Shown: piece by piece, positions 1,209-6,162 of the stretch
How the letters are laid out: each line of letters opens with the position of its first letter
Numbering within the stretch: the first letter of the stretch is position 1
Source: a virus
Lineage: Duplodnaviria; Heunggongvirae; Uroviricota; Caudoviricetes
DNA: 6,961 nucleotides
Virus record (IMG/VR): IMGVR_UViG_2744054675_000005
Span: 1 to 6,961 of that record
Reading direction: 5' to 3' (one strand)
Position numbers and translations under genes: made by a program
The notes under the pieces: generated by a model
The model's database searches: none
What the model was told of the DNA's origin: nothing
Seen by the model: the letters and a program-made list of their open reading frames with translations, nothing else

Positions 1209-2111
1209 TCAGTAGTTATGTGCTGAAGGAGGTAATTCTTTATTCTTAAGTCTCATCCATGCGGAAAGATTCGTTGGTCCGTCTGGCTCATTAATATCAA
1301 CATCTCGTGTGTGGTTTATTAAAACGTCTCTCGCCATTCCGATAACATACGAGAATTCATGACCGTAGTCGTAGCATCTGCCGGAATAGTTCGATTGAAT
1401 TTGTTTTAATGCCGGATACAGTTCGCGGAATAATGCCTGTGAACGGTTAGCATAATCCCATAGCCATACAAGGCTGTTTGCTTCTTTTGCAGAAAGCTCG
1501 TTGGTTTTCTTCTCTTGTTTGCCAATGAGCTCACCTTCAAGCACTACCCTGTGGATGTACTCTACTGCTTGCGGTATCTGAGATGCATCAAGCTCTTCAA
1601 TACTTTCCACATTGAAACGCTGATGAATCATTGCATAAGCTTCTGGGTACATTAGATGCTTTTTGCTGACCAGCATATTTACAGCATCACGAAGCGGAGT
1701 CCTGTCATCAACAGATGTTTTCTTACGTGCATTTTCTTCCTTTCCCTTTGTCCAGTAGTCATGCAGCACAGTAAAGCATTCTTCCTGGTACTGAATAAGT
1801 TTATCGCGGATGTCAGCACGAACTTTCTCAGGGTTGATGCTGAACAGCCATCCATTTAACTTCTTCAAAGGAAGGCAGAGTAGCTTACGAAGCTTCCCAT
1901 CAGCGGCAACCATGTTCATATGAACACAGTTGAATTTGCTAATCTGCTTCATGAGTTTTGTTTGCTGCGTTGACCAGCTCATTCCAAGGTTTTCAACGAT
2001 TGGCTTCATCGCAACATATGCAACTCCGGCAGCCATGGCGGTGATAATTTGCTGACCGTTGAATGGTACGTAAGAGGTGTTCACTGCTTCTAAAATTGCT
2101 ATACTATTCAT
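1209..2111 (-). CDS. ant: Antirepressor Ant (300 aa)
   Basis: The ORF track lists 1209..2141, but position 2141 is a TTG. The ATG at 2111..2109 has SD GGAGA (complement of 2121..2125) 9 nt upstream and gives exactly 300 aa beginning [53 protein letters not shown]..., which matches my recollection of P22 Ant (length and N-terminus). The position arc -> ant -> tailspike reproduces P22 immI synteny. Confidence 0.9.
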
Positions 2112-2185
2112 GTTGGTTTTTCTCCAAGGATTTACCGACAACCGAAGCCCTGACTGTTACCGCAGTTGGGGCTTCAACTTTTCAC
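2112..2185 (+). ncRNA. Candidate sar-like antisense RNA covering the ant ribosome-binding site
   Basis: A -10-like TATACT at 2100..2105 (inside the first codons of ant, plus strand) would start a transcript near 2112 that is antisense to the ant SD (2121..2125). It would end at a hairpin (gaagccc 2144..2150 pairs with gggcttc 2169..2175, with an inner actg/cagt stem) followed by the U-rich run aacttttcacttcttt. Size (about 70 nt) and position mirror P22 sar. The -35 is weak (tgttca 2078..2083). Confidence 0.35.
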
Positions 2186-2398
2186 TTCTTTAAAGTGCCT
2201 ACCTTCTACAGTTGCTCTGAGATAAAAATTCTTATCTTTACCGTTTAGTGCTTCCCAAGCATCAACAATGCACTTATTACAGATGTGGACTTCTCGATAA
2301 CCAATAGCTTTCCTGTCAATATTAGTGAACATAACAGCTTCTTTATCTGTCAATGTGGATGCATGACAGAAGTCGCAATCTATATAAGATACCTTCAT
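2174..2398 (-). CDS. Small Cys4 zinc-ribbon protein (74 aa) inserted between arc and ant
   Basis: ORF MKVSYIDCDFCHASTLTDKEAVMFTNIDRKAIGYREVHICNKCIVDAWEALNGKDKNFYLRATVEGRHFKEVKS carries two CxxC pairs (C8/C11 and C40/C43). Its ATG (2398..2396) overlaps the arc stop codon (GTATGA), with a G-rich SD-like stretch (GAGAGGGG) just upstream inside the 3' end of arc. Same strand and operon as arc and ant. Confidence 0.55.
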   Translation of the reverse strand: MKVSYIDCDFCHASTLTDKEAVMFTNIDRKAIGYREVHICNKCIVDAWEALNGKDKNFYLRATVEGRHFKEVKS

Positions 2399-2553
2399 AC
2401 CGTTATCCCCTCTCTCTTCAGGCTGTCCAACACTCGCTTGTAAATCTCAGAGTTAACAGATCGCCCGTTCTCTTCAGCTACCTTGCGCACCAAATCCAAT
2501 ACTTCTTTAGGCCACCGCAAATTGAACTGAGGCATTTTTCTTGCACCTTGCAT
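2395..2553 (-). CDS. arc: Arc repressor (52 aa, ribbon-helix-helix)
   Basis: Hand translation of the minus strand gives MQGARKMPQFNLRWPKEVLDLVRKVAEENGRSVNSEIYKRVLDSLKREGITV, near-identical to P22 Arc as I recall it (MKGMSKMPQFNLRWPREVLDLVRKVAEENGRSVNSEIYQRV...), including the DNA-contacting strand PQFNLRW. SD GGAG sits 6 nt upstream of ATG 2553. Missing from the ORF track because it is shorter than 61 aa. An in-frame upstream ATG at 2574 (MSEMELN-) has no SD and no counterpart in P22 Arc. Confidence 0.85.
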   Translation of the reverse strand: MQGARKMPQFNLRWPKEVLDLVRKVAEENGRSVNSEIYKRVLDSLKREGITV

Positions 2554-2577
2554 ATTCAACTCCATTTCACTCATTGA

Positions 2578-2590
2578 TAGTACCGTACTA
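2578..2590. promoter_or_regulatory. Perfect 13-bp palindrome TAGTAC-C-GTACTA; candidate Mnt-type operator at the Pant start site
   Basis: Positions 2578..2590 form a perfect inverted repeat around a central C. The core ACGGT (read on the minus strand) is shared with the centre of the P22 Mnt operator AGGTCCACGGTGGACCT as I recall it. It sits just downstream of the predicted Pant -10 and just upstream of the predicted Pmnt -35, the arrangement expected for an operator that represses Pant and autoregulates Pmnt. Confidence 0.5.
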
Positions 2591-2593
2591 CTA

Positions 2594-2622
2594 TTGAAAG
2601 CGTACTACTACCGTTCTAGCAT
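2594..2622 (+). promoter_or_regulatory. Candidate Pmnt promoter (-35 TTGAAA, 17-bp spacer, -10 TAGCAT)
   Basis: TTGAAA at 2594..2599 and TAGCAT at 2617..2622, followed by SD AAGGAG (2635..2640) and the GTG start of mnt at 2647. The spacer contains the second copy of the CGTACTACTA repeat (2601..2610; first copy 2584..2593). Confidence 0.4.
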
Positions 2623-2627
2623 GTCAA
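2599..2627 (-). promoter_or_regulatory. Candidate Pant promoter (-35 TTGACA; weak -10 TACGCT), overlapping and divergent from Pmnt
   Basis: The minus strand reads TTGACA (complement of 2622..2627), a 17-bp spacer, then TACGCT (complement of 2599..2604). The consensus -35 matches the P22 Pant layout TTGACA-operator-(-10). The -10 is a poor match, so the exact start site is uncertain. Confidence 0.4.
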
Positions 2628-2646
2628 CAAATAAAAGGAGAACGAC

Positions 2647-2889
2647 GTGGCTAGAAATGATCCACAATTCAACGTAAGAATGCCTGATGAGATAAAACAG
2701 CAACTTACGCATATTGCTGCAACAAATCGCCGCTCGATAAACGCAGAGATTATTTCAGCTATCGAACTATGGATAAAAATTCATAAAGGGCAGCTAATAC
2801 CTTCAAGTAGTCGAATCCTGACAAAGTCTGAGCAAGAGGCGTTTGATGTAGCTATTGATGTGTTAAAACGTGTAAGAGATGGAGGATAA
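2647..2889 (+). CDS. mnt: Mnt-like repressor (80 aa, ribbon-helix-helix, maintenance-of-lysogeny type)
   Basis: GTG start with SD AAGGAG 6 nt upstream. The protein MARNDPQFNVRMPDEIKQQLTHIAATNRRSINAEIISAIELWIKIHKGQL... resembles P22 Mnt (MARDDPHFNFRMPMEVREKL...ANGRSMNSELL...) as I recall it. Divergent from arc across a short shared control region, as in P22. Confidence 0.85.
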   Translation: MARNDPQFNVRMPDEIKQQLTHIAATNRRSINAEIISAIELWIKIHKGQLIPSSSRILTKSEQEAFDVAIDVLKRVRDGG

Positions 2890-2891
2890 CC

Positions 2892-3125
2892 ATGGAGCAA
2901 CAACAAGGGTCGCCATTATCATTGATTATTATGGTGATTTTTTTCGTTTTTATCTTTTTTATACCTGCGTTAAAAATATCCAAAAAGGCCGGTTTTGACT
3001 GGAAGATGGCTGTATGTTTAACAATCCCTGGCTTTAACGTGGTGGCGTGGCTCGCGCTTGCGTTCATGGATTGGCCAATTCACAAGTATCTACCAAAAGA
3101 TGTGAATCGTAAGGATGCAAAATGA
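2892..3125 (+). CDS. Small two-helix inner-membrane protein (77 aa), translationally coupled to mnt; function unknown, superinfection-exclusion candidate
   Basis: ATG at 2892 lies 2 nt after the mnt stop codon, with SD GGAGGA (2881..2886) inside the 3' end of mnt. The protein MEQQQGSPLSLIIMVIFFVFIFFIPALKISKKAGFDWKMAVCLTIPGFNVVAWLALAFMDWPIHKYLPKDVNRKDAK has two hydrophobic segments separated by a short basic loop. The region is AT-rich. Confidence 0.6.
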   Translation: MEQQQGSPLSLIIMVIFFVFIFFIPALKISKKAGFDWKMAVCLTIPGFNVVAWLALAFMDWPIHKYLPKDVNRKDAK

Positions 3126-3331
3126 ATAAAAAACAGCTTATTAAGTCAAAAACGTCAAGCAAGGAAGAATTAGAGAAGGAGCTAAACTCCCTGAAATATG
3201 CTCTGTGTCTGGTTTACTCAAGACTGCCAATGGAAGATAAAAACGCCATTTACAATGAAATGATTAGCAGCCTTGATTTTAACGATAGAGACCTAGCATC
3301 CCACCTCAACAGCTTCCGCGTCCCTGAGTAA
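3122..3331 (+). CDS. Hypothetical protein (69 aa), translationally coupled to the upstream membrane-protein gene
   Basis: Its ATG overlaps the upstream stop (ATGA at 3122..3125), with SD AAGGA about 7 nt upstream. The protein MNKKQLIKSKTSSKEELEKELNSLKYALCLVYSRLPMEDKNAIYNEMISSLDFNDRDLASHLNSFRVPE is charged and predicted helical. I recognise no family. Confidence 0.5.
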   Translation: MNKKQLIKSKTSSKEELEKELNSLKYALCLVYSRLPMEDKNAIYNEMISSLDFNDRDLASHLNSFRVPE

Positions 3332-3491
3332 TTCTGTTGCGGATTTGCTTCTTGCGGTGGTTTAAGCTGGAGAGCTTGGCTTCTGCTTCTGATATTTGCG
3401 CATCTAGATCTTTAAGCTCAAGATCTGAAAGTCGCTGGTCAAGCAGGGTTTGATTCAACTCAATGTTGTTCAGGCGTTCTTCTATGGTCAT
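3306..3491 (-). CDS. Hypothetical coiled-coil protein (61 aa), convergent with and overlapping the 3' end of the 69-aa ORF
   Basis: Strong SD on the minus strand (TAAGGAG, then 5 nt, then ATG at 3491..3489). The protein MTIEERLNNIELNQTLLDQRLSDLELKDLDAQISEAEAKLSSLNHRKKQIRNRITQGRGSC has a heptad-like Leu/Ile pattern. Its 3' end overlaps 3122..3331 by 26 nt on the opposite strand. Its start is only about 15 nt downstream of the terminator hairpin, so it has no obvious promoter of its own. Confidence 0.4.
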   Translation of the reverse strand: MTIEERLNNIELNQTLLDQRLSDLELKDLDAQISEAEAKLSSLNHRKKQIRNRITQGRGSC

Positions 3492-3504: not shown

Positions 3505-3536
3505 AAAAAACCCACCTGACGGTGGGTTTCATTTCT
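3505..3536. terminator. Bidirectional rho-independent terminator between the lipoprotein gene and the mnt-side accessory genes
   Basis: Stem cccacc (3511..3516) pairs with ggtggg (3521..3526) around loop tgac, extendable to 9 bp by A/T pairs. On the minus strand it is followed by UUUUUU-AU; on the plus strand by UUUCAUUUCUU. Confidence 0.65.
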
Positions 3537-3955
3537 TAATCTTGCTTCGTGGAAGGTATAAGAGATGCGTTTGCCTCTTTTGGCTTCAAGGTATACATCC
3601 CACCATTAAATGGATCAACAGCAAGCCAACCAATTAACCCACCAAACACAAGGTTTCCACCAATATACCAACCATTAGCATTGGCTTTGATTGGCAGGGT
3701 AACTGGTTCGTACCCATCCTTTTCCATAGTGATCTGGTAGCTCTTTTTGCCAAAATAACTACCATCTGACTTGGCAAGAGTTACTCCTTGTGGAGTTTTA
3801 CCTTGCGCAACAATCACACCTGATTCATCTTTTACCTTAAAGCTCGCACCAGAAGGATTGCTGTTCACTTGCACAAGTTGCGTTTCATCACCAACAATAG
3901 TTGCGCACCCAGATAACATGATAGCGCCAGCAACGACGCTAATAATCCTCTTCAT
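3536..3955 (-). CDS. Lipoprotein (139 aa from MKRIIS; the alternative ATG at 3967 adds MEID) with a PEGA-like beta domain and a Gly-rich C-terminal segment; sits in the sieA-equivalent position
   Basis: Signal peptide with lipobox MKRIISVVAGAIMLSG|C. The mature part SNPSGASFKVKDESGVIVAQGKTPQGVTL...YQITMEKDGYEPVTLPI fits the PEGA-domain pattern (P-x-G-A ... G-x-TP ... K-x-GY). C-terminal GWYIGGNLVFGGLIGWLAVDPFNGGMY. Located directly downstream of the large ejection-protein gene on the same strand. Confidence 0.8.
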   Translation of the reverse strand: MKRIISVVAGAIMLSGCATIVGDETQLVQVNSNPSGASFKVKDESGVIVAQGKTPQGVTLAKSDGSYFGKKSYQITMEKDGYEPVTLPIKANANGWYIGGNLVFGGLIGWLAVDPFNGGMYTLKPKEANASLIPSTKQD

Positions 3956-4050
3956 ATCAATTTCCATATCTAAAAAACCGGAAACATCCTAATGACAAAC
4001 TATTCAAATGTGAAGCACGAGATAAGATCAATCCATCCGTGGACGACTAA

Positions 4051-6162
4051 TTACTCCTGTGTCATTCCGCTTAGCGATGCCACAATCCCAGCCCTCGACA
4101 AACGCTGGAACTCTTCGTTTCCTAGTGCATCGCGAATTGCTTTTACGGCGGCCTTATTTGCCATAAATCTGCGTTCCGCCGCCGCTAATGCTTCTTTACT
4201 TCCGCCAGCTCTTACTGCTTTCGTGGCTTCCTGAACTGCTTTCTCTATCGCATATCGGCCGCTACGCGTGGTGGCAATTTTAGATACAGCACCTTTTAAC
4301 CCGGCGCCAACTAAAGCACCTGCGGCAGCGCCTGCAATGCCCCCTCCTGCTCCACCAACAATGGCACCTGATGTTGAGTTGGCAATTGCATTTAACACTG
4401 TTGATGTGACGTTGGATAAACCGGCATCCAGATCGCGTAGTACATTGGCAGTTCTCCCTGTTCTTTCAATATACTGCTGAGGTTTCACTGCTGCTCTTGC
4501 AAGAGTGCCATATGCATCAGCAATTCTTCCGAGTTCTGAGGAATATCTGCTAATGGCTTTTACATTTTGTGGGGTAAGTATCCCTGCGATATGGTTAATT
4601 CCTGCTGCATCAGCTTTGCCACCACGTACACCATGCGAGATAGCATCTTGCAACATTGATGATATAGCAGGAACACGCTCTGATTCTGGCAGCGCGCGGA
4701 TCATAGAATGGAACCCAGCAGGACCATTAAGACCTTTAGCTGACGATGATTGAAGGGATTTTACTCCATTCGTAATCAGTGCATCTGTTGCCAAATCACG
4801 CCCGAAAACAGACTCTGCACTCTCTTGTGCTGATAACCTCGCTTTAGACAGATCATTAGCTTTCTGCCAGTCATCAAGAAATCCGCCGTTTTCCGCCATT
4901 GTGCGCATATCATCAGTAATTGCCCGGCGTATTTCCCCTGCTCTCCTTGCCGCATTTGCCTCTCCGCTACGCTTATATTTTTGCTCCGCATCAGCAAATT
5001 TCGCTCTCCATGCTTTCATGCCATCAAATGTTACTCCACCTTGATTGTTTGCCTGAACAAACTGTTTCATTTCAGGAGTAAGCGGTATGCCAGCAGATCG
5101 CTCTGCCTGAATAACGGCATTACCATTTAGCATTCTTGCTTTTTGATTTGGCATTGTTGACCGCACGTCATCCCATGCCGCGCGCTCGGCATCCTTCATC
5201 TGATCAAGATTTTGAAGAATCCTTTGTTTTATAGCCGCACTTTTTTCTGATGCCGTTCCAGATGCGGCCCCAAATTCATCAAGGTTTCGACTTAACTTTG
5301 ATGATATTTCGTTAAATGCTGCCTGATGGGCGTCCTGAACAATTCCTGGTGTTGATGCCAATGCGCCTTCGGCTTGTGCAATTCCACGACTTCCAGATCG
5401 CATTCCTGGTGTTAATGCGTTTATATCAATTCCAGCAGACTCAGCCGCTTTTGCTACATCTTCGGACACATTAGCGGCCTGACTGGCAATTGACTGACGC
5501 CCAGCACCTGACTTTGCCATCCTGGAAACATCATTAGCAGAATTCAGTGCTGCACCACCAAGAGCCTGTGAAACCCTTGGCGCAATAACGCGCCCGACAC
5601 CTGAAAGAACGCCTTGAGCACCAATATTGATACCACCGTTAATGGCAGCATTTTGTGCAAAGTCGCCCTCCTGATTTGCAGCATCAGCAAGAGAACCTGC
5701 AATCATGTTTCCTGCGGAACCGATATCTCCAGCGAGCTTTGCTGGCGCTCCAGCAGCTTTTGCCGCTGTGCCAATTGGCAGGAGATACCCACCAATTGTT
5801 TCACCGGCTTGCGCATAAGGGTCTGTCGGTCGATCGACTGGACGATAGACATCATCCAAAACCTTGGGGCCACCAAGCCCCTGGCTGATTGCATTAATCA
5901 GACTTGCGCCACCCTGCAATACGTCAAATGGTATGTTTACCAGACCACGGCCAGCCTGTTCTGCAATTTGCCCTGCGCTTTGACCACCAGTGAGCCAGTC
6001 AGTGGCTTTTCCTACCAGAGATTGTTCTTCTGGCTGCGATTGGTTTTGAGTGGATTGATCACCAGAAGACAGCATCTGAGCAATGCGACGTGCTCCCTCA
6101 GTATCACCGGCAGCATCAGCATTCCTTAACGCCGTCATCAACTGTTCGCGACTATAGGCCAT
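4051..6162 (-). CDS. Virion ejection (DNA-transfer) protein, P22 gp16-like by position (703 aa)
   Basis: Long GC-rich ORF with SD GGAGGG. Its start is coupled to the upstream ORF through a TAATG stop/start overlap at 6160..6164. It is the last large gene before the sieA/mnt region, which is where gene 16 sits in P22. The protein is Ala/Gly/Gln-rich and has a glycine-zipper-like hydrophobic stretch [27 protein letters not shown] (about 4288..4368). Function is assigned by synteny and composition only. Confidence 0.7.

What the first reader, a model, noticed from the sequence alone, without database searches (positions are those of the whole stretch)
2174..2398. Extra Cys4 zinc-ribbon ORF inserted between arc and ant
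In P22, as I recall it, arc is followed after a short intercistronic region (the sar target) directly by ant. Here a 74-aa ORF with two CxxC pairs is wedged between them, start-coupled to the arc stop, while the sar-like region and ant RBS are retained downstream. A small zinc-binding protein co-expressed with the antirepressor could be an additional anti-immunity or anti-defence factor, or a regulator of Ant.
Basis: partly seen in the sequence, partly recalled or inferred. Interest (0 to 1): 0.6.

Follow-up and report, generated by a model that had tools for sequence, protein, structure and literature searches.

The report
ClpX-like zinc-finger gene between arc and ant
A real, conserved 74-codon gene sits between the arc repressor and ant antirepressor genes of a P22-like E. 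coli prophage and encodes a small four-cysteine protein that is most likely a distant free-standing copy of the zinc-binding head of the ClpX unfoldase; its function is untested.

Summary
Window 2174-2398 (-) is a 74-codon ORF with C8xxC11 and C40xxC43. Its ATG overlaps the arc stop (ATGA). The sar RNA (Rfam, 97 bits), the ant RBS and ant lie intact downstream. P22 and epsilon34 have only the 68-nt sar region at this position.

The ORF is a real gene. Seven distinct nucleotide alleles carry no indel or stop, and dN/dS is 0.11-0.53. Homologues down to about 44% identity always lie between arc and ant with the same 4-nt overlap.

The family is tiny: 19 clusters among 5.8 billion proteins, 23 of 5,426 complete E. 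coli genomes, and no deposited phage genome. It has no Pfam, PHROG or NCBIfam assignment.

It is one of at least seven alternative cassettes in this slot. Four are Cys4 proteins, and one of those (orf61, Pectobacterium) is a bona fide ClpX C4 zinc finger. Profile comparison links ORF74 to the E. coli ClpX zinc-binding domain at 92-94% probability and survives a shuffle control. So the fold is probably treble-clef, not a classical zinc ribbon.

Function is inferred only: an early-burst protein-binding module, possibly a ClpX-ZBD mimic. This is a new variant of a known kind, of moderate interest.

The parts
2174..2398 (-). ORF74: 74-codon gene (stop included) for a small Cys4 protein (C8, C11, C40, C43), a ClpX-ZBD-like zinc finger with a roughly 25-aa C-terminal tail
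   Evidence: The ORF and its sequence are. PGAP annotates it as CDS WP_000868958.1. dN/dS is 0.11-0.53 with no indels in 7 alleles. Synteny is conserved in all homologues. ClpX ZBD similarity is shown.
2395..2553 (-). arc (52 aa, MQGARKMPQF...). Its TGA stop overlaps the ORF74 ATG (ATGA at 2395-2398), and its last codons carry a GAGGGG Shine-Dalgarno-like motif for ORF74.
   Evidence: Pfam Arc at 91.6 bits.
2112..2179 (+). sar antisense RNA. It is complementary to the ORF74-ant intercistronic region, including the ant RBS, and its 3' end overlaps the last two codons of ORF74.
   Evidence: Rfam RF00262 at 97.4 bits, model positions 1-68 of 68. The same position is annotated in P22 and epsilon34.
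2112..2173 (-). 62-nt ORF74-ant intercistronic region holding the GAAGCCCC...GGGCTTC hairpin and the ant RBS (GGAG)
   Evidence: Near-identical to the P22 and epsilon34 arc-ant spacer. All cassettes end with TGA followed by AGCCCCAACTGCG.
1209..2111 (-). ant antirepressor (300 aa from ATG 2111, [10 protein letters not shown]...)
   Evidence: Pfam P22_AR_N at 1.3e-44 and P22_AR_C at 6.2e-30. The start is aligned with P22 ant.
2077..2105 (+). Psar promoter, assigned by position only, inside the first codons of ant
   Evidence: P22 annotates Psar 7-35 nt into ant. The window sequence is identical to P22 here apart from one base. This assignment is an inference.
2599..2627 (-). Pant candidate: -35 TTGACA at 2627-2622, a 17-nt spacer, and -10 TACGCT at 2604-2599. 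It overlaps operator-like repeats and would drive arc-ORF74-ant.
   Evidence: The TTGACA aligns with the annotated P22 Pant -35. The consensus scan did not call it because the -10 is weak. This assignment is an inference.
2647..2889 (+). mnt-like repressor gene, divergent from arc
   Evidence: Pfam Arc-like domain at 1.8e-12. The same protein is annotated mnt in phage Emek.
1..1108 (-). 5' part of the tailspike gene (P22-type head-binding domain, [17 protein letters not shown]...), which runs off the left end of the window
   Evidence: Translation. A tailspike follows ant in all related loci.

Best explanation
ORF74 is a genuine protein-coding gene of the P22-type immI operon (Pant-arc-ORF74-[sar target]-ant) of a Lederbergvirus-like E. 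coli prophage.

Expression (inferred from anatomy). It is transcribed from Pant together with arc and ant. It is translated by coupling to arc through the ATGA overlap plus a GAGGGG motif 8 nt upstream. Because sar covers only its last two codons, it should be made whenever arc is made. That means the immediate-early burst after infection or after loss of Mnt, even while sar blocks ant translation.

Product. The protein is a small C4 zinc-binding protein. Its core (residues about 5-52) is a divergent, free-standing homologue of the N-terminal zinc-binding domain (ZBD, treble-clef) of ClpX. It carries a roughly 10-residue insertion between the two knuckles and a conserved roughly 25-residue tail.

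Context. It is one of several interchangeable cassettes that recombine precisely between the last codons of arc and the TGA-AGCCCC start of the sar hairpin. Four of the seven cassette types seen are ZBD-like Cys4 proteins.

Mechanism (inferred, not shown). It acts as a protein-protein interaction module. The specific version is that it mimics the ClpX ZBD. It would bind ZBD ligands or ClpX itself and so shift ClpXP-dependent turnover of a phage or host protein during the Pant burst.

How sure each step is:
- Real gene: about 0.95.
- Slot cassette: about 0.9.
- ClpX-ZBD-like fold or homology: about 0.7.
- ClpX-related mechanism: about 0.25.
For: Coding status:
- Seven nucleotide alleles carry no indel or stop. 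dN/dS is 0.11-0.53, and third-position bias also holds in codons 1-22, which contain the first CxxC.
- The four Cys are invariant across the family down to 24-47% identity.

Synteny:
- Every homologue found lies between arc and ant (or downstream of arc) with a 4-nt start/stop overlap. These include P0008, P0009 and P0010 at 44-56% identity.

Slot and cassettes, from 80 Arc-containing IMG/VR loci:
- 45 carry no cassette, most of them with the P22-type 68-69-nt gap.
- 13 carry orf73, 11 orf89, 7 ORF74 and 1 orf57.
- 3 carry other Cys4 ORFs.
- All right junctions are TGA followed by AGCCCCAACTGCG.

ZBD link:
- The same-slot orf61 scores 42.6 bits on PF06689 (threshold 27) and matches PDB 1ovx, the ClpX ZBD, at E=1.5e-5.
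- PF06689 is the top Pfam hit for each ORF74-family member tested, at E 0.0015-0.0095.
- hhalign of the ORF74 family against orf71 gives 96% probability.
- Against the orf61 plus ClpX mini-profile it gives 92.4%, E=5e-7.
- The slot Cys4 profile built without orf61, against the E. coli ClpX ZBD fragment alone, gives 93.6%, E=2e-7, with 35% identity.
- With the Cys columns fixed and the rest shuffled, the score falls from 36.3 to 12.9 +/- 3.2, and 0 of 200 shuffles reach the real score.
- The AF2 model (pLDDT 70) puts C40xxC43 at the N-terminus of helix 41-50. The top Foldseek PDB hit is the ClpX ZBD 2ds5_A.

Independence from Ant type:
- ORF74 is found with P22_AR_N, KilA-N and Bro-N type Ants.
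- It or its relative persists with ant frameshifted (L093) or absent (L079).
Against: - No ORF74-family member reaches the Pfam gathering score (16-19 bits against 27).
- The spacing between the CxxC pairs is 28 residues, against 18 in ClpX.
- hhalign probabilities on short Cys-rich profiles with Neff about 2 can be inflated.
- There is no evidence of translation, of zinc binding, or of any interaction.
- The slot also holds unrelated cassettes (orf73, orf89, orf57). So the position by itself does not imply a ClpX-related role.
- Nothing found in the literature links P22 immI to ClpX.
Confidence: 0.55

Rival explanations
1. Accessory early-burst gene unrelated to ClpX. The zinc finger binds some other host or phage target, for example a defence-system component, a nucleic acid or RNA polymerase. 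The arc-ant slot would then simply be a favoured landing site for small counter-defence or host-takeover genes, because Pant fires immediately after DNA entry.
For: - The slot holds at least three unrelated non-Cys4 cassettes: orf73 (phrog_11805), orf89 (phrog_27312, transmembrane plus coiled coil) and orf57.
- ORF74 has lower GC (36%) than arc (45%) and ant (43%).
- A single 100%-identical allele sits in varied flanks in 23 E. coli genomes, which points to recent horizontal spread.
- The 'ant moron' is known to be in rapid flux (PMC2629481).
Against: - Four of the seven cassette types are ZBD-like Cys4 proteins, and one is a bona fide ClpX-type finger. That is a non-random enrichment for one fold.
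- There is no hit to any PADLOC defence model.
- No anti-defence library was available to test against.
Confidence: 0.25
2. Dedicated modulator of the immI circuit. The protein binds Ant, Arc, Mnt or the C2-type repressor and tunes antirepression, for example as a chaperone or inhibitor of Ant.
For: - There is strict linkage to arc and, usually, ant across 44-100% identity.
- It is co-transcribed and translationally coupled within the operon.
- Overproduction of Ant is known to be harmful to P22 (own knowledge: Susskind 1980, cited in PMC2629481).
Against: - P22 and epsilon34 run the same circuit without it.
- The same ORF74 family pairs with Ants that have different N-terminal domains: P22_AR_N, KilA-N and a 292-aa type.
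- The orf71 relative is retained with no ant (L079), and ORF74 is intact beside a frameshifted ant (L093).
- Unrelated cassettes substitute for it.
Confidence: 0.15
3. The act of translation, not the product, is what matters. ORF74 would be a leader or spacer ORF that couples ribosome traffic from arc towards ant or sets sar access, as icd does upstream of ant in the phage P1 immI operon. A weaker form of this rival is that it is a non-functional or spurious ORF.
For: - The ATGA coupling to arc is conserved in all cassettes, whatever they encode.
- sar overlaps the last two codons.
- A small ORF upstream of ant exists in P1 immI (own knowledge, not tested here).
Against: - Purifying selection acts on the amino-acid sequence, and the Cys ligands are invariant.
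- ant keeps its own RBS 62 nt downstream, identical to the one in P22, which works without any upstream cassette.
- There are no frameshifts in any allele.
Confidence: 0.05

Closest known systems
ClpX N-terminal zinc-binding domain (Pfam PF06689 zf-C4_ClpX; PDB 1OVX, 2DS5)
   Same: - It has a C-x-F-C ... [HY]-I-C-x-x-C-[IV] signature with four Cys ligands, and the second CxxC leads into a helix.
- PF06689 is the top Pfam hit for every family member tested.
- hhalign gives 92-94% probability and survives a shuffle control.
- 2ds5_A is the top Foldseek PDB hit.
   Different: - It is free-standing, with no AAA+ module.
- It has a roughly 10-residue insertion between the knuckles, giving a spacing of 28 against 18.
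- It has a roughly 25-aa C-terminal tail.
- It scores below the Pfam threshold.
- Dimerisation and adaptor or substrate binding are unknown.
orf61 of a Pectobacterium P22-like prophage (P0011; UniRef name 'ClpX C4-type zinc finger protein'), plus orf71 (P0018) and orf75 (P0019)
   Same: - They occupy the same slot between arc and the sar hairpin, with the same ATGA overlap, similar size and the same Cys4 pattern.
- orf71 is clearly homologous to ORF74 (hhalign 96%, E=4e-9).
   Different: - orf61 is a canonical-length ZBD that scores above the Pfam threshold (42.6 bits) and has no insertion.
- Identity to ORF74 is only 23-33%.
- orf75 is linked only weakly (67%).
P22 / epsilon34 immI region (mnt, Pant, arc, sar, ant)
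   Same: - mnt, arc, sar and ant are homologous and in the same order and orientation.
- The sar and ant-RBS sequences are nearly identical.
   Different: - P22 and epsilon34 have no gene between arc and ant.
- The last four arc codons differ (GITV* against RIGA*).
- The operator-region sequence differs.
orf73 of Salmonella phage Emek / Escherichia phage vB_EcoP-611R6 (phrog_11805) and orf89 (phrog_27312)
   Same: They are alternative occupants of the identical slot, with the same junctions and the same arc coupling.
   Different: - Their sequences are unrelated to ORF74 (no BLASTP alignment).
- They have no cysteine motif.
- orf89 has a predicted transmembrane segment.
Phage-encoded protease modulators (own knowledge, not tested here): T4 PinA and T7 Gp4.5 (Lon inhibitors), lambda RexB (ClpP)
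   Same: The concept is the same: a small early phage protein that alters host ATP-dependent proteolysis.
   Different: There is no sequence or fold relationship. No activity has been shown for ORF74. The resemblance is at the level of hypothesis only.

Membership tests
ClpX-type C4 zinc finger (PF06689, treble-clef ZBD) | Four Cys zinc ligands arranged CxxC ... CxxC | tested here: met
   C8/C11 and C40/C43 are invariant in all family members and slot relatives.
ClpX-type C4 zinc finger (PF06689, treble-clef ZBD) | Score at or above the Pfam gathering threshold (27 bits) | tested here: not met
   ORF74 scores 18.9 bits (E=0.0015). P0008, P0009 and P0010 score 16.3-18.1 bits. The same-slot orf61 does pass, at 42.6 bits.
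ClpX-type C4 zinc finger (PF06689, treble-clef ZBD) | Profile-level similarity to the ZBD that extends beyond the cysteines | tested here: met
   hhalign gives 92.4% (E=5e-7) and 93.6% (E=2e-7). The Cys-fixed shuffle control gives 12.9 +/- 3.2 against the real 36.3, with 0 of 200 shuffles reaching it.
ClpX-type C4 zinc finger (PF06689, treble-clef ZBD) | Canonical spacing of about 18 residues between the two CxxC pairs | tested here: not met
   ORF74 has 28 residues between C11 and C40. The alignments place a 10-residue insertion after the first knuckle.
ClpX-type C4 zinc finger (PF06689, treble-clef ZBD) | Treble-clef fold: a zinc knuckle, a beta-hairpin, and the second ligand pair at a helix N-terminus | tested here: inconclusive
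ClpX-type C4 zinc finger (PF06689, treble-clef ZBD) | Zinc binding, constitutive dimerisation, and binding of adaptors or substrates (SspB XB, lambda O, MuA) | not testable with these tools
   This needs biochemistry or multimer modelling.
   The model places the second CxxC at a helix N-terminus. No zinc-ribbon Pfam family appears among the hits. The medium model confidence prevents a firm rejection.
P22-type immI operon | A divergent mnt, then Pant-arc-sar-ant, with arc and mnt in the Arc/MetJ RHH family and Ant carrying P22_AR domains | tested here: met
   Pfam results are and Rfam sar.
Moron (Hendrix/Juhala sense: an independently expressed insert with its own promoter and terminator) | Own promoter and terminator flanking the inserted gene | tested here: not met
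   There is no promoter-like site on the - strand within arc and no terminator of its own. The start overlaps the arc stop and the end abuts the sar hairpin. The compositional offset is present: GC 36% against 43-45%.
P1 icd-type leader ORF of an ant gene | The small ORF overlaps, or is translationally coupled to, the downstream ant start and is needed for ant translation | tested here: not met
   A 62-nt gap separates ORF74 from ant, which has its own P22-identical RBS. tblastn of ORF74 found nothing in 50,697 phage records.

The most novel reading that the evidence does not exclude
The arc-ant junction of P22-like immI operons is a dedicated dock for free-standing mimics of the ClpX zinc-binding domain. 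These would form a new class of phage-encoded modulators of ClpXP substrate selection. They would be delivered in the immediate-early Pant burst to stabilise a phage factor or to blunt a ClpXP-dependent host response, such as antitoxin turnover, SOS or sigma-S control. That would add a proteolysis-control layer to the classic secondary-immunity circuit.
Probability: 0.2. Interest if true: 0.7.

Novelty: new variant of a known kind. Interest (0 to 1): 0.45.

Why it matters
P22 immI (mnt/arc/sar/ant) is a textbook regulatory circuit, yet a recurrent extra gene inside its operon has gone unremarked and is annotated only as 'hypothetical protein'.

Three findings turn an anonymous ORF into a concrete, cheap-to-test hypothesis. 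The gene is under purifying selection. It stays locked to this position across deep divergence. And it is probably a free-standing copy of the ClpX substrate- and adaptor-recognition domain. The tests are zinc content, ClpX N-domain or SspB binding, ClpXP assays, and deletion in a clpX background.

The work also defines a precise recombination slot, from the last codons of arc to the TGA-AGCCCC start of the sar hairpin. Small genes expressed in the immediate-early Pant burst are swapped there. Such a slot is a natural place to look for counter-defence or host-takeover factors.

If it turns out to be just another small accessory gene, the practical gains are modest. They are corrected start codons for the Salmonella copies and a family definition for annotation.

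Tried and rejected
- tblastn of ORF74 against 50,697 deposited phage genomes found no hit. The gene is known only from prophages and IMG/VR contigs.
- Two scans of GTDB species-representative genomes found no relative.
- A profile search against PDB sequences returned only T-cell-receptor alpha chains at E of 0.002 or higher. The alignment runs through a non-cysteine stretch, and I judged these chance matches.
- The first AF2 run, with a shallow alignment, gave pLDDT 50.6 and was not used for fold search.
- The second model gave only non-significant fold matches.
- PHROGs, PADLOC and NCBIfam gave no usable hit for ORF74.
- BLASTP of ORF74 against the orf73 cassette gave no alignment, so they are not divergent alleles.
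- The last large profile search (all slot Cys4 proteins, without orf61) recovered only 19 clusters and no ClpX. That does not bridge to ClpX, though the tool's word index limits its reach.
- Literature searches found only the general 'ant moron' variability (PMC2629481). The queries covered P22-like arc/ant/immI, stand-alone ClpX zinc domains in phages, antirepressor plus ClpXP, 'ClpX C4-type zinc finger' plus phage, and phage-encoded ClpX inhibitors. None described this gene or slot.
- I considered the Salmonella '52-aa' versions as N-terminally truncated proteins lacking the first CxxC and rejected that reading. The full 74-codon frame, with an ATG or GTG overlapping the arc stop, is open and conserved.
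- The consensus scan found no sigma-70-like promoter for ORF74 inside arc.
Full report
**What the window is.** The 6,961-bp window is the 'ant moron'/immI region of a P22-like (Lederbergvirus-type) E. coli prophage, with the late operon on the minus strand.
- A gp16-type DNA-transfer protein gene lies at 4051-6162 (-).
- A set of small accessory genes lies between 2890 and 4050.
- mnt lies at 2647-2889 (+).
- arc lies at 2395-2553 (-), the ORF in question at 2174-2398 (-), and ant at 1209-2111 (-).
- The 5' part of a tailspike gene with a P22-type head-binding domain runs off the left end.
- Identical 551-bp stretches covering arc, the ORF and the start of ant occur in complete E. coli chromosomes. 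There PGAP annotates the ORF as 'hypothetical protein' WP_000868958.1.

**Checking the observation.**
- The ORF is 74 codons and has CxxC at residues 8-11 and 40-43.
- Its ATG overlaps the arc TGA as ATGA. A GAGGGG motif lies 8 nt upstream, inside the last arc codons.
- Downstream, Rfam finds a full-length sar RNA on the opposite strand at 2112-2179, scoring 97.4 bits against a gathering score of 43.
- The hairpin, the ant RBS and the first ant codons are nearly identical to those of P22 and epsilon34.
- In the annotated P22 and epsilon34 genomes the arc stop abuts the sar terminator, and ant starts 68 nt later with nothing in between.

**Is it a gene?**
- I collected 12 copies from E. coli, Citrobacter freundii, Salmonella and metagenome assemblies, giving 7 distinct nucleotide alleles at 80-100% amino-acid identity.
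- None has an indel or a stop.
- Variable columns fall 18/15/31 by codon position. Pairwise Nei-Gojobori dN/dS is 0.11-0.53, mostly about 0.2-0.3.
- The same third-position bias holds in the first 22 codons (5/4/11).
- That matters because gene callers gave the Salmonella copies a 52-aa product starting at Met23. In fact the full frame is open and starts with an ATG or GTG overlapping the arc stop, and the first CxxC is conserved.
- An exhaustive phmmer scan of 1.84 billion cluster representatives found just five representatives.
- A profile search of 5.8 billion proteins found 19 clusters.
- The more distant homologues (P0008 at 56%, P0009 at 47%, P0010 at about 44-54%) are again directly downstream of arc with the 4-nt overlap. 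They are followed by ant wherever the contig is long enough.
- The four cysteines, F10, I39 and I44 are conserved throughout the family.
- This is a real gene under purifying selection that has stayed in one genomic position through substantial divergence.

**How common is it, and is it an insertion?**
- The gene is present in 23 of 5,426 complete E. coli genomes, all with a 100% identical nucleotide sequence.
- The flanks vary: arc is 97.4% identical in the ST131-type copies, and the genes beyond mnt are unrelated.
- It is absent from all 50,697 deposited phage genomes.
- It has no PHROG, PADLOC or NCBIfam match.
- To see what normally occupies the interval, I fetched the 80 IMG/VR loci whose Arc is closest to this one and read the arc-ant interval in each.
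  - 45 have no ORF coupled to the arc stop. Most of these show the P22 state, a 68-69-nt gap.
  - 13 carry an unrelated 73-aa ORF. This is Emek orf73, phrog_11805, also present in Escherichia phage vB_EcoP-611R6.
  - 11 carry an 89-aa ORF with a hydrophobic segment and a coiled coil (phrog_27312).
  - 7 carry ORF74, and 1 carries a 57-aa ORF.
  - 3 carry other Cys4 ORFs of 61, 71 and 75 aa.
- Every cassette starts with [AG]TGA on the arc stop. Every cassette ends with a TGA that runs directly into the AGCCCCAACTGCG hairpin of sar.
- Arc proteins next to a cassette end ...REG[IV][TV][VIM], whereas those of empty loci end ...EGRIGA. So the left junction lies in the last codons of arc.
- These frequencies are biased towards relatives of this Arc and should not be read as population frequencies.
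- P22 reads GCG-TAA-AGT-TGA-AGCCCC where ORF74 reads GTG-AAA-AGT-TGA-AGCCCC. The empty state may therefore be a deletion derivative rather than the ancestral state, and the direction of change is undecided.
- ORF74 has lower GC (36%) than arc (45%) and ant (43%).

**What is the protein?**
- Against Pfam, ORF74's top hit is the ClpX C4-type zinc finger (PF06689), below threshold at 18.9 bits, E=0.0015.
- The same family is the top hit for P0008, P0009 and P0010 (E 0.003-0.01). For P0009 and P0010 the alignment spans both CxxC pairs.
- The decisive lead came from the slot survey.
  - The 61-aa cassette of a Pectobacterium prophage (MIKDGVRHCSFCGKSQ...SICNLCI) is a bona fide ClpX-type finger. It scores 42.6 bits against a threshold of 27.
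  - It matches the solved E. coli ClpX ZBD (1ovx) at E=1.5e-5, and one source names it 'ClpX C4-type zinc finger protein'.
- Profile comparisons give the following.
  - The ORF74 family is clearly homologous to the 71-aa cassette (96%, E=4e-9).
  - It is more weakly related to the 75-aa cassette (67%).
  - It matches a mini-profile of orf61 plus the ClpX ZBD at 92.4%, E=5e-7.
  - A profile of all slot Cys4 proteins, excluding orf61, matches the E. coli ClpX ZBD fragment alone at 93.6%, E=2e-7, with 35% identity over 31 columns.
- Short Cys-rich profiles can give inflated scores, so I ran a control. I shuffled the non-cysteine columns of the ZBD profile while holding the four ligand columns fixed. 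The score fell from 36.3 to 12.9 +/- 3.2 (maximum 25.2), and 0 of 200 shuffles reached the real value.
- The alignments place a roughly 10-residue insertion (about T16-N26) after the first knuckle. This explains the 28-residue spacing, against 18 in ClpX.
- An AF2 model built on a more diverse alignment reached pLDDT 70.4 and pTM 0.58. It puts C40xxC43 at the N-terminus of helix 41-50, the treble-clef arrangement.
- My reading: ORF74 is probably (about 0.7) a divergent, free-standing ClpX-ZBD-like treble-clef zinc finger with an insertion and a conserved C-terminal tail.
- It is not shown to be a member of PF06689 by the family's own cut-off. The 'zinc ribbon' label is probably not the right fold class.

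**How it probably works.**
- The following is shown by anatomy. The gene sits in the Pant transcript between arc and the sar target. It is start-coupled to arc. Only its last two codons are covered by sar.
- From established knowledge of P22 immI (PMC2629481 and the work it cites), three things follow.
  - Pant is repressed by Mnt in the lysogen.
  - Pant fires immediately after infection until Arc shuts it off.
  - sar blocks ant translation by pairing with its RBS.
- I therefore infer that ORF74 is produced in the same transient early burst as Arc, and independently of the sar block on Ant.
- A roughly 50-residue treble-clef ZBD is a protein- and peptide-binding and dimerisation module in ClpX (own knowledge of the ClpX literature). 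So the most economical mechanism is protein-protein interaction.
- The specific hypothesis I commit to, at about 0.25, is ZBD mimicry. The protein would bind ligands of the ClpX N-domain, or ClpX itself. It would thereby change ClpXP-dependent turnover of a phage or host protein during establishment or superinfection.
- The enrichment of ZBD-like proteins among slot cassettes (4 of 7 types, 10 of 35 occupied loci) supports this hypothesis.
- Several facts count against it. Unrelated cassettes occupy the same slot. There is no known link between immI and ClpX. And sequence similarity to ClpX outside the core motif is low.
- A role as a dedicated Ant partner is less likely.
  - The same family is found with Ants carrying P22_AR_N, KilA-N or other N-domains.
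  - ORF74 is intact next to a frameshifted ant in L093.
  - The homologous orf71 sits between arc and the tailspike gene with no ant at all in L079.
- A pure 'leader ORF' role, like P1 icd, is unlikely given selection on the protein sequence and ant's own unchanged RBS 62 nt downstream.

**Comparison with what is known, and novelty.**
- Villafane et al. [quoted passage not shown] They did not single out the arc-ant junction.
- I found no paper on a gene between arc and ant, nor on free-standing ClpX-type zinc fingers in immunity regions.
- The gene is already in databases as a hypothetical protein, so its existence is not new.
- Three things do appear to be new:
  - the definition of a precise cassette slot;
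  - the finding that ORF74 and at least three other cassettes form a ClpX-ZBD-like group;
  - the expression logic, an Arc-like early burst that escapes sar.
- I rate this a new variant of a known kind, of moderate interest (0.45). Small unknown ORFs in phage accessory regions are commonplace. This one, however, sits inside a classic circuit, is strictly position-locked, and yields a sharp, testable hypothesis.

Noticed in passing
window 2395-2398 and 2174-2182; loci L033-L112: The arc-ant junction is a recombination slot with at least seven alternative cassettes: none, orf73, orf89, ORF74, orf57, orf61, orf71 and orf75. All start with [AG]TGA on the arc stop and end with TGA followed by AGCCCCAACTGCG. 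The Arc C-terminal residues co-vary with cassette presence (...GITV against ...RIGA).
   Followed up: partly
L017 (P22) 1195-1215 compared with window 2174-2185: P22 reads GCG-TAA-AGT-TGA-AGCCCC after arc, where ORF74 ends GTG-AAA-AGT-TGA-AGCCCC. The in-frame AGT-TGA after the P22 arc stop looks like a vestige of the ORF74 3' end. That hints the 'empty' P22 state could be a deletion derivative.
   Followed up: no
L009-L013 (Salmonella) 2935-3159; proteins P0005, P0006, P0016: The Salmonella and some Citrobacter copies are annotated as 52-aa proteins starting at Met23. The full 74-codon frame, with an ATG or GTG overlapping the arc stop and including the first CxxC, is open and conserved. The deposited starts are probably wrong.
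   Followed up: yes
L079 2483-3300; L093 2656-3907: In L079, arc and the Cys4 orf71 are followed by about 390 nt and then the tailspike gene, with no ant. In L093, ORF74 is intact (GTG start) but ant is split by a frameshift into 99-aa and 284-aa ORFs.
   Followed up: partly
window 3536-3967 (-): This is a 143-aa ORF with a lipoprotein-like N-terminus (MKRIISVVAGAIMLSGC) between gp16 and mnt. It has a weak PEGA-domain hit (E=0.004) and a weak signal-peptide-level hit to the phage exclusion lipoprotein Cor (E=0.06). It may be a superinfection-exclusion moron taking the place of sieA.
   Followed up: partly
window 2892-3125 (+), 3122-3331 (+), 3306-3491 (-): Three small ORFs lie downstream of mnt. 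One is 77 aa and hydrophobic or membrane-like, one is 69 aa, and one on the opposite strand is a 61-aa coiled coil. They are the same set as Emek orf77, orf69 and orf61 and as the E. coli prophage annotations. No family assignment was found.
   Followed up: partly
window 2575-2646 compared with L017 960-1040: The Pant/Pmnt operator region differs substantially from that of P22 and epsilon34, although the -35 TTGACA is conserved (TAGAACGGTAGTAGTACGC against TAGAAGCACTCTACTAT). This suggests a different Arc/Mnt operator specificity. The -10 (TACGCT) is weak, and the consensus scan did not call it.
   Followed up: partly
E. coli genomes, hits H41-H63 and H71-H93: The ORF74 allele is 100% identical at the nucleotide level in all 23 E. 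coli genomes, including several ST131-type strains. Meanwhile arc is 97.4% identical and the genes beyond mnt are unrelated (a PIN-domain gene in one, small ORFs in another). The cassette has moved recently among mosaic prophages.
   Followed up: partly
window 1209-2141 (-): The mechanical ORF list starts ant at a TTG (2141, 310 aa). That extension would read through the sar target. The real start, by alignment with P22, is the ATG at 2111 (300 aa).
   Followed up: yes
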